Source: the human T2T-CHM13v2.0 reference genome, Homo sapiens
Strand: one strand, 5' to 3'
Assembly (NCBI RefSeq): GCF_009914755.1
Contig: NC_060935.1
DNA length: 64,000 nt
Shown here: piece by piece, positions 15,234 through 46,391 of the stretch
How positions within the stretch are numbered: position 1 is the stretch's first letter
Layout of the letters: the number at the start of each line of letters is the position of its first letter
The notes under the pieces: model-generated
Seen by the model: only the letters and a program-made list of their open reading frames with translations
Database searches by the model: none
What the model was told of the DNA's origin: nothing
Program-made: the position numbers and the translations under genes

Positions 15234-15626
<393 letters not shown>

Positions 15627-19148: not shown

Positions 19149-19465
<317 letters not shown>

Positions 19466-40732: not shown

Positions 40733-41986
40733 TATCTCAGGATTCTTAATGTAAAAACAGTTCAGTATGGAAAGCGTACTTATGACAGAGCTGTTGCAGA
40801 ATGTGAAATCACCCATGTGCCTAAGTGTCTCCCTACTACCTGGAACACTAGACCACATGCAGCAGGCCCGCCTCCACAGGTGAAGGCCTCTGTTCAATTG
40901 AAGAGGAGCTTTGACACCTTGGAAACAGAGGTGGAGCCAAGAGGCTGGAAAAGCCTACCTGTCACTACTGAATTTTCAGAACACAACTGTAAATACCCTC
41001 TGGGTTTATTTGGGAGAAGAATGTGTATTATAAAGTATAGTTTGTAAATCAAAGCAAAGCACATAAATATGATCTTGTTCACATAAGTGCTAAGAAGGGC
41101 TAAATATATTTCCCTAGAATCGGCACGATCCCAGGGCTGAAGGCTGAAAGAAACCCCATCAAGCCCAGAAAGACACTGGTAGGTATAGTGGAAATAGTAT
41201 TTGTCTTAAATTTAAAAAGCAAAGGTGGAACTCCAAGTTTGCCACTATCTATAAGCTATTTATCCCTTCTATATTCACTTTCCTTATGGATAGAGAGGAT
41301 TGAGTTAGTTGGCTTTTAAAAATCTTTCTCGCATGAAACTGACTGTAATCTAAGTCCCTTTTCCACTTCCTTTTTATTTGGTTTTTATTTATTCATTCAG
41401 TATATTCATTCAGCAACATTTATTCAAACACAAGACATTGCTAGATATGCAAATAGCTGCAACACCTTAAGCCCAACTCATGGTCTCCCGTGGCTTTTCA
41501 TATGTCTTATTCTCTTTGAGCCTCACAATAATCCTGTGAGTATAGGCAAGCCTGTCATGTCTATTGCACTTTAACATGAGGACACAAGGAATTGGTGAGA
41601 ATAAATGTTTCAACAAAAATGATATGTCTAAAAATGATAAGAAATGGGGTCAGTAACCATATCTTTTTACTCTTGGATTAAACTTTCATCTACTATTTCA
41701 AATTTTCTCACCAAAATAATATTCTGCCCTTTTAATTGGACATTATTCTTTATAAAATACCCTCTGGAAAAAACCTAATTTGATCTTTACAAAACTCATA
41801 CAAAGTTGTTAGAATCAAGCCTATCTGACACAACCAGACACGAAATAAAGACTTGAGCTATGTTAACTCAAATATAGTCGGCTACTTAGCTGAATTCTCA
41901 TAGGCTAAATATAAGGAAGATTATAAACCACTCATTTTCTGCTATATATCAGGCAGGTACTATGCTATTTTCTTAACATATGTCTA

Positions 41987-42313
<327 letters not shown>

Positions 42314-42804
42314 ACAATAACCCTCTTCAGAAGGAATTATCATTTAACAGGAAAAAATTAATGAGGCTCGGTTAAGTAATCTGTATAAGGTCACATAGCT
42401 AATAAGTGGCTGGAGCAAAACGCAAATATAGGCATGTCTGACTGCAAAGTTCCAGCTCTTCACACAGTTCACAGGGAGAGTCTATAATTGAAAATTGATA
42501 AACTTGGTTCCAGGTCACATCAAGCTATCTAACTGATCTCTATCTTTCAAGAGACAGTGTTCCTAACTTAGATATATCTGGAAGGAAAATCTGAGAGGGT
42601 GGAACTAAGAAAAAACACATTTACAAATAATATAATCAAATGAATTGGGTGATACAGATGCCAGGATGAGAAAAATTCTACCACAGTCCTACAGAGAGGG
42701 GTTGTGCAGCTAGCGAGCAGTGGTTAGTATTATTTCTTAAATGTATCACAAAGCTCTGTCCAATTACATTTTGAAGAGTTCAGTGCTTGAGGCTGGAAGT
42801 GTCA

Positions 42805-43202
42805 TAGTTTTATTTGTCAGGATAATGAGGTTATGCTGCAGGAACAAATCAACCCTCAAAATCTCAGCGGCATAACGACAACTATAAAGTTTTATTTCTC
42901 ACTATGCAAAGCCTGCTGCAGGTCCAGTAGCTTTCCAGGACAACTCTCTTTTGTGAGGTACATCAGGCTCCACTCTACTTCTCCAATATTTTTCTACAAC
43001 ACGCCTGGTCTTCAGGTTCCCATAGCAAAGAAAAAGACACATGGTCAAGTGCTGTCCCTTTAATGCTACAACCCAGAAACAATATGTGCCAATTCCACTT
43101 GTAGCCCATTTGTCAGAACTAGTCACATGACCTTACCTGGCACAAGGGAGCTGCGGAGCACGTGGTTTAGACGTTTGGGAAGCTATAACTATCTCTGCCA
43201 TA
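42805..43202 (-). mobile_element. MLT1J/K-like LTR
   Basis: GTCAGGATAATGAGGTTATGCTGCAG...AAAATCTCAGCGGC...AAGTTTTATTTCTC...AGAACTAGTCACATG. Confidence 0.7.
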
Positions 43203-43239
43203 TTACTTTTCAAGGACAGTAAATCCCATTCCCAGCACA

Positions 43240-43703
43240 TCTAAAGAGTGGGTATTTGGGGTTTTCCTTGCAGGGGCCTCTATCCTTTTTTACCCTTCTC
43301 TGTGCACCGGGAGACTGAACCAGACACATCAAATACACGCCCTCCTCTTCACTTCCTGCACCTCTGACTTCCTCTTGTATTACTACAAGAAGCACCTATG
43401 GAAGAGAAAAGTAAGGTCAAGATAATGATTGTTTTTTTCTTCCTGTGACATCTCCAAGGAATGAGACTAGGGCTCTACCATTTTCCACTTTAACTCTCTC
43501 TTTCTGGGCTCCAGAAACCATTCCTATCCTTCATCCCTTCAGGGACCCCAGCAACCTATTCTTATGGAGCTGAGGGCATTGCACCATTTCTTGTGATTTC
43601 TCTGTACTCTGCCCACATTTTTATAAGTTATCTGTCTACTAAACTCTTTCCAGATTACCCAATTTAAATTCTCCTGGTTCCTGCTGAGATACTGACTGAT
43701 ACA
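43240..43703 (+). mobile_element. LTR33-like (ERVL) LTR
   Basis: The 3' end ACTAAACTCTTTCCAGATTACCCAATTT...CCTGCTGAGATACTGACTGATACA matches the LTR33 terminus. Confidence 0.6.
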
Positions 43704-44144
43704 AGGGAATTCTGAAAAAGGATTACATATTTTAACTATTCAAAAGAGCCTCTGTTGGACTCTACCACTTGAGTTAGAAGTGTATTAACCTGTAATAGAA
43801 TTTACTTATAATAACTGCATAAATTGGTGTTCTCTTTCTATTTCTCTCTGCATTTCTATCCATCCTCAGTATCATCAGAAAAGTTGATTGATTTTTTTGG
43901 ATAGTTTGTGTTCTTAGAATCCCCTAGTGACCTCTCATTACCATAGAAAAATATCCAAAATTAATAGCCCAGATTTCAATACACTCCATTAATCAGCCAA
44001 TTTTCAGTTCACTCCAGGTATATTGCTCTCAATTCTCCAGACCAAAGGTTAGTAAACTATAGCGTGTGGGCCAAATCTGGTACATTTATAAATAAACTTT
44101 TATTGAAACACAGTCACACTCATTCATTCTATGTGTCAATGAGT

Positions 44145-44371
44145 GTCACATAGCTAATAAGTGGCTGGAGTGAAACGCAAACATAGGCATGTCTGACTGC
44201 AAAGTTCCAGCTCTTCACACAGTTCACAGGGAGAGTCTATAATTGAAAATTGATAAACTTGGTTCCAGGTCACATCAAGCTATCTAACTGATCTCTATCT
44301 TTCAAGAGACAGTTATCCTAACTTAGATATATCTGGAAGGAAAATCTGAGAAGGTGGAACTAAGAAAAAAC
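44145..44371 (+). repeat. Direct copy of 42390-42616
   Basis: 227 bp with 6 substitutions counted by eye (~97% identity). Confidence 0.97.
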
Positions 44372-44395
44372 TCATTCACATAGAATGAATGTGAA

Positions 44396-44585
44396 AGAAG
44401 GGTAAAAAAGGGTAGAGTGCCCCTGCAAGGAAAACCCCAAATACCCACTCTTTAGATGTGCTGGGTATGGGATTTACTGTCCTTGAAAAGTAATATGACA
44501 GAGATAGTTATAGCTTCCCAAACGTCTAAACCACGTGCTCCGCAGCTCCCCTGTGCCAGGTAAGGTCATGTGACTAGTTCTGACA
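44396..44585 (-). repeat. Inverted copy of 43111-43299
   Basis: The reverse complement matches 43111-43299 with about 4 substitutions and 1 indel (~97%). Confidence 0.97.
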
Positions 44586-44789
44586 GGTCACACTCATTCT
44601 ATGTGAATGAGTTTTTTCACATAGAATGTACTGTCTGTGGCTGCGTTGACAACACAACAGTAGAGCTGAATAGTTAAGACAGAAACTACAGAGCCTACAA
44701 GCCTACAGTATTTAGTATCTAGCCGTTCACCAGAAAAGTTTACTACCCTGGTCTCTAGATCACAGTATCATCAAAAGCATTCACATATC

Positions 44790-45122
44790 ACATTGTCGCA
44801 GGCCTAGAGTGAGGATAATCTCTGGTATCAACTTCATCTGTAAAAAATTAGACTCAGATACCGTTTCCAATCTTATCCCTTCAATAAAATGTTTCAAAGT
44901 TTCCAGCTAGATTTTTCCAGCAGCTTGTTTGCAACTTTACTTAGCATTTCCTATGTTACTTATTATACAAATTTAGTTGCTTTTATATCTGTTTCTCCTT
45001 ATTAGATTTGAAAGAAACTTAACAAAAATTACATTGTATGCATCTGTATATCTCCTTTGATGCCTACATAGTGTCTGGCAGCTTTAAGGTATTAAATAAC
45101 TCTATGTTGACTGAATGAATAT
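44790..45122 (+). mobile_element. L2 3' fragment
   Basis: CCTACATAGTGTCTGGCA...TATGTTGACTGAATGAAT terminus. Confidence 0.6.
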
Positions 45123-46391
45123 CTACAGTAGTAGGAAATATCAACTGCTCTTGAAAGGAACATGATCATGCTTCCTGGATTTGCATGAAGAAATTGACAT
45201 CATTTGATTCCCCAGTAGTCTAAGGGAAGGGAGGAGATAAAGAGAAAAACTGTACCATTCTTCAAGACACAGTAGCTGCTCTTCTCATCTCAGCTCTTCT
45301 CATCTATAGTGAGGAGGAAACAACAGAAACCTGTATTTGCACAGATGTGAAAACAACTTATATTAATGTTGAGAAATAATACCAAGATTCTGAGGGGCTG
45401 TGTGAGCTGGAATTAGTCAGTTAGGTAACAGTGGGTAACATAGTGGGATGTCCCAGTATATTTTAGTGTACATCATATTTTTTTCATTATCATCTCCCTC
45501 AATAATACCAAAAATATTTTTCTTCCATTAGTATGTTTTATATTTCTTATGATACACTTTGAGATTCATTTCTTCCTTTAAGTTTCACAACAATCTTATA
45601 CATTATGTTTGGTTCTGTTTTAATATTGGGAAATAAATAGAAAAGACCGTTAAAATAAGTACTCAATCATGTTATCTCTACCTAAAAAAAGAAGAAAAAT
45701 AAAAGAAAATAGACATTGGTCATAATTAGGAATCTCTTGTATATTTCCTTCCTAAAGTATTTGTGGCAGTGAATGGGATTTATCTTCTGAATTTTCAGAC
45801 AAATTAAATCCCGAAAAAAAATGCAGCTATCTCTTCTCCTTTCCTCAAGCCAACTCAGTTGAAGCCAAAGGAATAGTTTTGTAAGAGCAAAACCAGTGTA
45901 CACAGTAGGGATGTTATAGATTATTAATGAAGTCATTTGTGTGGTTCTGACATTAGTTCATTTTCAAGCATCCTTATTTTTGTCACTGCAAATCCGTTTT
46001 TCAAGATGGTTTTTCTCCCCTCTCCTCCCAAAGACTATATCCAGGGAGAAGAAATAAATAGACGGCAGAAAGATTCTATGAATTGTATAACCAGGTAGAA
46101 CTTTGAACTATTAACTTGGGTGGTTTTCCACAGCTCTCTCTTATACCCTTCTTCGAAATCCATTGTCTTGATTACAATTCTACCGGTAGTAATAACTTTC
46201 ATTATATTCTACTCTGTGGAGAGCAATTGATTCAGCTGAAAACCAACAGTCAAATTGAAGGCATTGAGTTTGAAAATCTGTCCCTATACCCATATCAGTA
46301 GTAAAATTCTTAAAAGTCAAGACTTTCAAACACATGAACTAAGGTTTGGAGAGAAAGGGAGAAAAAATGGAAAAGAAGGCATTATGATCAA

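What the first reader, a model, noticed from the sequence alone, without database searches (positions are those of the whole stretch)
44113..44629. Fossil multi-template-switch insertion: two nearby donors plus copies of its own breakpoint, stitched into a MER58A
Seen in sequence: the MER58A is broken at about ATGT (44131-44134, repeated at 44626-44629). The insert reads, in order: (1) a short snap-back AATGAGTGT (44138-44146), the reverse complement of flank 44116-44124; (2) a direct copy of 42390-42616; (3) an imperfect inverted copy of the left junction (CTCATTCACATAGAATGAATG); (4) an inverted copy of 43111-43299; (5) a re-copy of the left flank (GTCACACTCATTCTATGTG); (6) a final fold-back. 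The donors are 0.8-1.8 kb upstream and cross repeat boundaries (MIR/unique; MLT1/LTR33), and the insert has no poly(A) and no retrotransposon-length TSD, so this is not transposition. Inference: at least five template switches during repair of a germline break, as in polymerase-theta end joining or MMBIR/FoSTeS. Both copied blocks are about 2.6% diverged from their donors, which fits one event of roughly great-ape-ancestor age.
Basis: partly seen in the sequence, partly recalled or inferred. Interest (0 to 1): 0.8.

Follow-up and report, generated by a model that had tools for sequence, protein, structure and literature searches.

The report
Fossil multi-template patchwork insertion in transposon relic
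A 495-base patch stitched from two nearby stretches of the same chromosome plus small copies of its own break point sits inside an old transposon relic; it is a clear fossil of a known kind of error-prone DNA break repair, with no sign of a function.

Summary
A 495-bp insert (44135-44629) splits a MER58-like element between two copies of ATGT. Twelve other copies of that element run straight through the break point.

The insert holds a direct copy of 42390-42616 (221/227) and an inverted copy of 43111-43299 (4 mismatches, 1 indel in 189). Six short exact pieces (7-25 nt) copy the left flank or junctions made earlier in the same insert.

Genome-wide, both blocks occur only at donor and insert. 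Unrelated repeat copies match across the donor block ends but stop at the block ends in the insert, so the upstream sites are the sources. Junction overlaps are 0-6 nt. There is no poly(A) tail and no long target duplication.

Best reading: one replicative repair event with about eight microhomology-primed template switches, of the MMBIR/FoSTeS type with polymerase-theta-like snap-backs.

This kind is in print, including human germline insertions from up to five templates. It is a new instance, not a new mechanism.

The age is untested, because no primate genomes were available. Divergence is 2.4% (95% CI 1.15-4.4%).

The parts
44036..44134 (.). Left arm of the host MER58-like transposon relic (start approximate), ending ...CATTCATTCTATGT
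   Evidence: Family copies elsewhere in the genome match it. In 12 of 12 aligned copies it continues directly into the right arm.
44131..44134 (.). ATGT, left copy of the 4-bp duplication at the break
   Evidence: The family alignment allows only one ATGT in the unbroken element.
44135..44137 (+). GTC, three bases with no template found. The G is re-copied in all later copies of the flank, so it was there when they were made.
44138..44146 (-). Snap-back: exact reverse complement of left flank 44116-44124
   Evidence: 9/9
44145..44371 (+). Block 1: direct copy of donor 1 (42390-42616), 221/227 identical. It overlaps the snap-back by GT.
42390..42616 (+). Donor 1, 1.5-1.75 kb upstream of the break. 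Its left end lies inside an old interspersed repeat that continues leftwards.
   Evidence: Repeat copies span 42390 in 9 of 9 nhmmer hits.
44370..44394 (-). Inverted copy of the left junction: 44370-76 = rc 44138-44, 44377-91 = rc 44121-35, with TC skipped. TGA at 44392-94 and A at 44395 have no clear template. It overlaps block 1 by AC.
   Evidence: (I5)
44396..44585 (-). Block 2: inverted copy of donor 2 (43111-43299), 4 mismatches + 1 indel
   Evidence: (I1, I2)
43111..43299 (+). Donor 2, 0.84-1.02 kb upstream of the break
   Evidence: One unrelated genomic copy (L047) matches 43095-43139 across the block end.
44587..44599 (+). Direct re-copy of left flank 44113-44125 (13/13), preceded by an unexplained G at 44586
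44594..44618 (-). Reverse complement of 44364-44388 (25/25), i.e. of the junction between the end of block 1 and the inverted flank copy. It overlaps the previous piece by TCATTC. Read as one arm, 44588-44618 pairs with 44364-44394 at 30/31.
   Evidence: (I3)
44616..44628 (-). Terminal fold-back: reverse complement of 44595-44607 (13/13), also identical to 44375-44387
44626..44629 (.). ATGT, right copy of the 4-bp duplication. ATG is shared with the fold-back.
44630..44760 (.). Right arm of the host element (end approximate), starting ACTGTCTGTGGCTGC

Best explanation
This is the scar of one germline break or fork collapse inside an old MER58-like transposon relic. It was repaired by low-processivity copying that changed template about eight times.

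Inferred order, left to right:
1. The 3' end at ...TATGT gained a G and snapped back on its own flank (9 nt).
2. It moved through a 2-nt overlap to a site 1.75 kb upstream and copied 227 nt in direct orientation.
3. It returned through a 2-nt overlap and copied its own freshly made left junction backwards (22 nt).
4. It left again and copied 190 nt, inverted, from 0.84-1.02 kb upstream.
5. It came back to the left flank (13 nt).
6. It slid through a 6-nt overlap onto the reverse complement of the junction made in step 3 (25 nt).
7. It folded back once more (13 nt).
8. It annealed by ATG to the other side of the break. This left ATGT on both sides.

The donors stayed in place, so the process was copying, not cutting. 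The two long tracts have opposite polarity. At least one of them therefore needed a duplex or sister template.

This fits microhomology-mediated break-induced replication or fork stalling and template switching. The short snap-backs are of the polymerase-theta kind.

Shown: the anatomy, that the blocks occur nowhere else in the genome, the direction of copying, and the overlaps. Inferred: a single event, the left-to-right order, and the enzymes. No function is implied.
For: Anatomy and identities.

The host element is unbroken elsewhere:
- Of 27 family loci fetched, 5 had both arms adjacent by BLAST (L013, L014, L015, L016, L030). Their extrapolated arm-to-arm gap is -1 to +3 bp.
- In a MAFFT alignment of 12 loci that I chose from the 27, 12 of 12 have 0-1 residues in the 490 insert columns.

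The blocks are not a repeat family. Whole-genome searches with the insert and with both donor regions return only the donor and insert places for the blocks.

The donors are the originals:
- Unrelated copies of an old repeat match across 42390. Two genome hits cover 42362-42419 and 42370-42410.
- 9 of 9 nhmmer hits span that position, four of them weaker than E 0.01.
- One copy matches 43095-43139, across 43111.
- Against the insert, these same copies stop at 44145/44146 and 44584.

Iterative copying rather than ligation: 44370-91 contains the snap-back junction, and 44594-44618 contains the block-1-end junction.

Junction overlaps are 2, 2, 0-1, 0-3, 6, 3 and 3 nt.

The blocks are equally diverged: 6/227 against 4/189, Fisher p = 1.

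Literature:
- The MMBIR model predicts complex events with inverted pieces, 2-5 bp microhomology and multiple switches by a low-processivity polymerase (abstract).
- Human germline templated insertions from up to five templates are reported (passages).
- In human cells, polymerase-theta-initiated, polymerase-delta-dependent MM-BIR gives inserts with medians of 155-234 bp, median overlaps of 2-3 bp, fold-back synthesis and several non-overlapping inserts from one 10-kb hotspot (abstract and passages).
Against: - No outgroup was available, so one event as opposed to several is parsimony, not observation.
- Three junctions carry bases with no template (GTC, TGAA, G). Two have little or no overlap, which also fits end joining.
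- The order and strand of synthesis cannot be proved from the product. A right-to-left reading is possible with more steps.
- The ten substitutions could in part be synthesis errors. Polymerase theta is reported at about 1 error in 30 bp in templated inserts, which by itself would give about the divergence seen.
- Against that, the only three sites I could polarise point to changes on both lineages. This rests on a weak alignment of nine diverged repeat copies.
- Why the break fell here is unexplained.
Confidence: 0.78

Rival explanations
1. A single event, but pure polymerase-theta end joining of a two-ended break. Polymerase theta made the whole insert, most of the 2.4% difference is synthesis error, and the event is much younger than it looks, possibly human-specific or polymorphic.
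For: Snap-backs, repeated returns to one flank, skipped bases (TC), untemplated bases and 0-3 nt overlaps are polymerase-theta hallmarks. An error rate of about 1 in 30 is reported for its templated inserts (passages; abstract start of PMC4912351 in the listing).
Against: - In the same paper the inserts are overall under 25 bp, and about 85% are primed within 10 bp of the break. Here two tracts of 227 and 190 nt come from 0.84-1.75 kb away.
- Of three polarisable differences, one is derived in the donor (42427; the copy state C is held by 6 of 8 family copies). One pair looks like a CpG decayed separately in each copy.
- The transition to transversion ratio is 7:3, as in ordinary drift (my count from the alignment).
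Confidence: 0.08
2. Two or more separate events: first an insertion with block 1, later a second insertion of inverted block 2 into the end of the first.
For: Nothing in one genome can exclude it. The divergence estimates have wide intervals.
Against: - The piece right of block 2 copies the junction left of block 2.
- Both blocks are equally diverged.
- All junction pieces are built from the same 25-nt flank motif.
- A second independent break would have had to strike within a few bases of the first scar.
Confidence: 0.07
3. Capture and ligation of free DNA fragments (non-homologous end joining of excised or over-replicated pieces) at a double-strand break.
For: Some junctions have 0-1 nt overlap and stray bases.
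Against: - Fragments would not contain copies of junctions created during the same event.
- The donors are intact.
- Six short exact flank copies in both orientations need synthesis.
Confidence: 0.03
4. Retrotransposition or an RNA-templated patch (LINE-1 machinery, class 1 or 2 templated sequence insertion).
For: Templated patches from elsewhere in the genome exist as human polymorphisms (abstract).
Against: - The class 1 features named in that abstract are target-site duplication, polyadenylation and a TTTT/A target. None is seen: the duplication is 4 bp, the A6 run is donor-templated, and the target is TATGT/ACTGT.
- The two blocks have opposite orientation.
- No gene is annotated in the window (the hub's table).
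Confidence: 0.02
5. Assembly artefact.
For: None found.
Against: The copies differ from their donors at 10 substitutions and 1 indel. A mis-join of reads would give identical copies. The junction architecture is coherent.
Confidence: 0.01

Closest known systems
MMBIR / FoSTeS complex rearrangements (Hastings, Ira and Lupski 2009, PMC2621351, abstract read)
   Same: Complex product with direct and inverted copied pieces, short microhomology at junctions, multiple template switches by a low-processivity polymerase, and donors retained.
   Different: - The scale is hundreds of bases and the net result is a small insertion, not a kilobase-to-megabase copy-number change.
- It is fixed, or at least old, in a gene desert rather than a disease allele.
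- Several junctions have stray bases and 0-1 nt overlap.
Germline MMBIR-type templated insertions, including complex ones from up to five templates (Osia et al. 2021, PMC8421209, passages read)
   Same: Human germline insertions built from several nearby templates in forward and reverse orientation, with microhomology at the switches.
   Different: Their search looks for inverted templates within 100 bp, and insert size is limited to read length. Here the two main templates lie 0.84-1.75 kb away and are about 200 nt long, so this event would fall outside that search.
Mitotic MM-BIR started by polymerase theta and extended by polymerase delta (Ngo et al. 2026, PMC13065848, abstract and passages read)
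   Same: Insert sizes (medians 155-234 bp), overlaps (median 2-3 bp), fold-back-induced synthesis, and several non-overlapping inserts drawn from one small region.
   Different: Those are somatic events at telomere fusions or nuclease breaks in cultured cells, with templates from many chromosomes. This one is germline, uses only local templates and returns to the original chromosome.
Polymerase-theta end-joining templated inserts (van Schendel et al. 2016, PMC5068794, passages read)
   Same: Snap-back copies of the flank, reiterated priming and dissociation, use of mainly one flank, slippage and untemplated bases.
   Different: Those inserts are mostly under 25 bp and are primed within about 10 bp of the break. 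The two long tracts here do not fit.
Short-range template switches in great-ape genomes (Walker et al. 2021, PMC7954356, passages read; Loytynoja and Goldman 2017, listing only)
   Same: Evolutionary fossils of template switching, found by comparing sequence with its own neighbourhood. They create inverted repeats.
   Different: Their four-point model describes one excursion and return within a fork. This event has about eight junctions and two long excursions, so that model cannot describe it.

Membership tests
MMBIR/FoSTeS-type replicative complex rearrangement | Complex product: discontinuous copied segments, some inverted | tested here: met
   One direct block, one inverted block and six short pieces in both orientations
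MMBIR/FoSTeS-type replicative complex rearrangement | Microhomology of about 2-5 bp at junctions (abstract) | tested here: inconclusive
   Overlaps are 2, 2, 0-1, 0-3, 6, 3 and 3 nt. Three junctions carry 1-4 untemplated bases.
MMBIR/FoSTeS-type replicative complex rearrangement | Copying, not moving: the templates stay in place | tested here: met
   Both donors are present and sit in their original repeat context
MMBIR/FoSTeS-type replicative complex rearrangement | Origin at a broken or stalled replication fork; dependence on POLD3/PIF1 or the like | not testable with these tools
   Needs experiment. The opposite polarity of the two long tracts only suggests that both strands or a sister were available.
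Polymerase-theta-mediated end joining templated insert | Small inserts (mostly under 25 bp) templated within about 10 bp of the break | tested here: not met
   The short pieces fit. The 227-nt and 190-nt tracts from 0.84-1.75 kb away do not.
Polymerase-theta-mediated end joining templated insert | Snap-back (reverse-complement) copies of the flank and reiterated priming | tested here: met
   44138-46, 44370-91 and 44616-28. The window has only 15 such short inverted repeats, and 2 of them are at this insert's ends.
LINE-1-mediated insertion (class 1 templated sequence insertion) | Target-site duplication, poly(A) tail, TTTT/A target (abstract) | tested here: not met
   Only a 4-bp ATGT duplication, no tail (the A6 run is in the donor), and the target is TATGT/ACTGT
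Interspersed repeat family (the insert itself as a mobile element) | Multiple dispersed copies in the genome | tested here: not met
   Whole-genome searches find the blocks only at donor and insert. The 31-nt inverted arms occur only here. The tool warns that counts of repeats are lower bounds.
MER58A (hAT-type non-autonomous DNA transposon) as host element | Match to the family along both arms | tested here: inconclusive
Dozens of 73-93% matches to both arms across the genome, and 12 aligned copies of about 216-241 bp. No repeat library was available to confirm the subfamily.

The most novel reading that the evidence does not exclude
The insert is a germline record of the hybrid pathway recently described in cultured human cells: polymerase-theta priming followed by polymerase-delta break-induced synthesis. 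The trigger would be secondary structure at the centre of a palindromic transposon relic.

Its signature is a return to a 'home base' hairpin at the break between each long excursion, with re-copying of nascent junctions. That signature could be searched genome-wide to measure how often this pathway has shaped primate genomes. It would also give the order of synthesis from sequence alone.
Probability: 0.12. Interest if true: 0.55.

Novelty: new member of a known kind. Interest (0 to 1): 0.35.

Why it matters
The scar has no apparent function. It lies in a gene desert, overlaps no annotated element and matches no RNA family.

Its value is as a very legible natural example of serial template switching in the primate germline:
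- It has eight junctions.
- It combines short snap-backs with tracts of about 200 nt.
- Later pieces copy earlier junctions, which gives the order of synthesis.

Published germline catalogues that I read look for templates within 100 bp or for a single excursion. Events of this intermediate size, with templates 1-2 kb away, are probably under-counted.

A targeted genome-wide search for this pattern could show how common they are. It could also show whether the differences between copy and donor are age or mutagenic synthesis.

Tried and rejected
- **Earlier findings of this scan.** Nothing was used.
- **Primate orthologues and human haplotypes.** No tool here holds them, so neither the age nor fixation could be tested.
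- **Naming the repeats (MER58A, MIR, MLT1, LTR33).** No repeat library is on hand. I could show only family copies spanning the relevant points. For donor 2 a single 45-bp hit (L047) is all there is.
- **Break caused by a hairpin of the palindromic host element.** This is weak.
  - The pre-insertion element folds at -24.7 kcal/mol with 36 pairs spanning the break. The z-score is only -2.0 (200 shuffles) or -1.7 (60 shuffles), using mononucleotide shuffles.
  - The 12 family copies range from z +0.38 to -3.18, with no consistent local structure at the equivalent point.
  - The break sits at 43% of the element's length, not at a clear apex.
- **A structured RNA in the new inverted repeats.** There is no Rfam match at gathering score in 42000-45200.
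- **A unified model in which both long tracts are copied from the resected 3' tail of the left end.** I rejected this by reasoning. It predicts the opposite order of the two blocks.
- **Templates for the stray bases.** The 8-10-nt matches to 40-48 kb are at chance level for that search space.
- **This locus in print.** A search for 'MER58' with 'template switch' gave one unrelated clinical long-read paper (listing only). A search on templated insertion / primate / fixed / ancestral gave nothing on this locus (listing only). These two searches are the whole basis for calling the instance undescribed.

Full report
**What is there**

I read 42300-44900. I then ran a repeat search, local alignments, a maximal-exact-match parse of 44105-44645 against 40-48 kb on both strands, and exact extension of every piece.

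The host element's left arm ends at 44134 (...CATTCATTCTATGT). Its right arm resumes at 44630 (ACTGTCTGTGGCTGC...). ATGT stands at 44131-34 and again at 44626-29. The 495 bases between (44135-44629) read, in order:

| Insert coordinates | Content | Match |
|---|---|---|
| 44135-37 | GTC | no template found |
| 44138-46 | reverse complement of 44116-24 | 9/9 |
| 44145-44371 | direct copy of 42390-42616 (block 1) | 221/227 |
| 44370-76 | reverse complement of 44138-44 | 7/7 |
| 44377-91 | reverse complement of 44121-35 | 15/15 |
| 44392-95 | TGAA | no template found |
| 44396-44585 | inverted copy of 43111-43299 (block 2) | 4 mismatches, one 1-bp indel |
| 44586 | G | no template found |
| 44587-99 | direct copy of 44113-25 | 13/13 |
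| 44594-44618 | reverse complement of 44364-88 | 25/25 |
| 44616-28 | reverse complement of 44595-607 | 13/13 |

The 44370-76 and 44377-91 pieces together form an inverted copy of the left junction with TC skipped.

It is better read as two exact copies that overlap by TCATTC. Read this way, neither a 4-base skip nor a later mutation is needed.

**More than chance**

- A self-BLAST of the whole window gives only the three matches of this structure at 92% or more over 25 bp or more, plus one unrelated 30-mer.
- The window has 15 distinct short inverted repeats (arms of 9 nt or more, spacer of 20 nt or less). Two of them are the two ends of this insert.

**The host element was whole before**

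A whole-genome search with 44030-44765 found dozens of 73-93% matches to one or the other arm, and 27 loci were stored.

By BLAST, 5 of the 27 showed both arms side by side: L013, L014, L015, L016 and L030. The extrapolated gap between the point matching 44134 and the point matching 44630 is -1 to +3 bp. A sixth locus, L031, had the second arm 1.1 kb away, so I did not count it.

I aligned 12 of the 27, chosen for two-arm matches or long left-arm matches. The 15 left out include seven chr16/chr7 loci with matches of only 44-70 bp. All 12 have 0-1 residues in the 490 insert columns. The alignment leaves room for one ATGT, not two.

So the insert is an insertion with a 4-bp duplication and no measurable loss.

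**Which copy is the source**

Genome-wide, the two blocks occur only at the upstream sites and in the insert. The tool warns that repeat counts are lower bounds.

At the upstream sites the sequence is continuous with older repeats across the block ends:
- Two unrelated places match 42362-42419 and 42370-42410.
- All 9 nhmmer hits in the window and the other stored loci span 42390. E-values run from 1.3e-7 to 0.31, four are weaker than 0.01, and two are duplicates of each other.
- One place matches 43095-43139, across 43111.

Against the insert, the same copies stop at 44145/44146 and 44584. Family similarity fades by about 42475, while block 1 runs on to 42616.

The names MIR, MLT1, LTR33 and MER58A could not be checked against a library.

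**How it most likely arose**

The donors are retained, so this was copying. Later pieces contain junctions that exist only because of earlier steps:
- 44370-91 includes the snap-back.
- 44594-44618 includes the end of block 1 joined to the inverted flank copy.

That argues for iterative synthesis on one growing strand from left to right. It argues against ligation of loose fragments. A right-to-left reading needs extra steps.

Overlaps at the eight junctions are 0-6 nt, with 1-4 stray bases at three of them. The two long tracts have opposite polarity, so a single-stranded tail alone cannot have templated both in the observed order. That last point is reasoning, not a computation.

The best fit is microhomology-mediated break-induced replication or fork stalling and template switching, whose model abstract lists exactly these features. 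The snap-backs and reiterated priming are of the kind shown for polymerase theta.

Polymerase theta alone fits poorly. Its inserts are reported as mostly under 25 bp, with about 85% primed within 10 bp of the break.

A 2026 study in human cells describes a pathway in which end-joining factors start a polymerase-delta-dependent break-induced synthesis. It reports insert medians of 155-234 bp, median overlaps of 2-3 bp, fold-back synthesis and several non-overlapping inserts from one small region. That is the closest match in scale.

**Age**

There are 10 substitutions in 416 aligned bases, which is 2.4% (95% CI 1.15-4.4%). With the indel it is 2.6%. The two blocks do not differ (Fisher p = 1).

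I compared this with pairwise divergences that I recall, not from any call. In the table, "≥10" means ten or more differences and "≤10" means ten or fewer.

| Comparison | Recalled divergence | Probability |
|---|---|---|
| Human-chimpanzee | 1.2% | P(≥10) = 0.03 |
| Gorilla | 1.6% | P(≥10) = 0.14 |
| Orangutan | 3.1% | fits |
| Gibbon | about 4% | P(≤10) = 0.06 |
| Macaque | 6.2% | P(≤10) = 0.0004 |

The only test I could make used nine diverged copies of the repeat under block 1 as an outgroup:
- At 42416 the donor state is ancestral (C in 6 of 9).
- At 42427 the copy state is ancestral (C in 6 of 8 with a residue).
- At 42417 the family splits 4 A, 4 G and 1 T, as for a decayed CpG.

Changes thus seem to lie on both lineages, as expected for age. 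But this is three sites on a weak alignment. Gene conversion between donor and copy would also bias the age downwards.

**Why here**

This is unexplained. The host element is a degenerate palindrome and the break lies at 43% of its length. The predicted fold is only marginally better than shuffles (z -2.0 and -1.7), and the family copies show no consistent structure at that point.

**Comparison and novelty**

The kind is known. Complex germline templated insertions from up to five templates are in print. So are short single-excursion template switches across great apes, with 4017 significant events reported.

This instance differs in scale and legibility. Its templates lie 0.84-1.75 kb away, outside the 100-bp search radius of the first study. 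It has eight junctions, outside the one-excursion model of the second.

Two literature searches found nothing on this locus (listings only). I did not see the supplements of any paper, and catalogues in them might list it.

No function is suggested. No gene or element is annotated over it (the hub's table), and there is no Rfam match.

**Verdict**

The finding is real and correctly read. It is a new example of a known mutational process, of moderate interest to specialists in repair and genome evolution.

Noticed in passing
window 42559-42560 vs 44314-44315: One of the differences between donor 1 and its copy is a tandem double change (GT in the donor, TA in the copy). This is unlike the other differences, which are single changes and mostly transitions. 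It might be a synthesis error rather than drift.
   Followed up: no
window 42416-42417 vs 44171-44172: The donor has CA and the copy has TG. This is the pattern expected if a CpG present at the time of copying decayed independently in each copy. Family copies split 4 A / 4 G / 1 T at the second position.
   Followed up: partly
window 42200-42320 (end of the masked stretch 41979-42322): This stretch gave the top-scoring genome-wide hits (81-90% identity, thousands of first-look candidates). It is an ordinary high-copy repeat just upstream of donor 1 (an Alu by recall) and is not part of the event.
   Followed up: no
L020-L026 (G000 C16 at 14.9, 15.2, 16.3, 16.7, 18.4 and 18.6 Mb; C7 at 69.0 Mb): Seven places give two sets of near-identical scores against the left arm: 93% over 44 bp at five places (four on C16, one on C7) and 80% over 70 bp at two places on C16. 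L020 and L022 are identical in the repeat alignment. These copies evidently lie in large recent segmental duplications.
   Followed up: no
window 15558-15587 and 19288-19317: A 30-bp inverted match (93%) between two masked repeats about 3.7 kb apart. It is the only other self-match in the window at that threshold, and is probably two copies of one repeat family in opposite orientation.
   Followed up: no
window 42609-42616 and 43284-43291: Both long copied tracts have an A6/T6 run at or near the end where copying stopped (block 1) or started (block 2). A paper on short-range template switches reports that poly(dA:dT) tracts may modulate event initiation.
   Followed up: no
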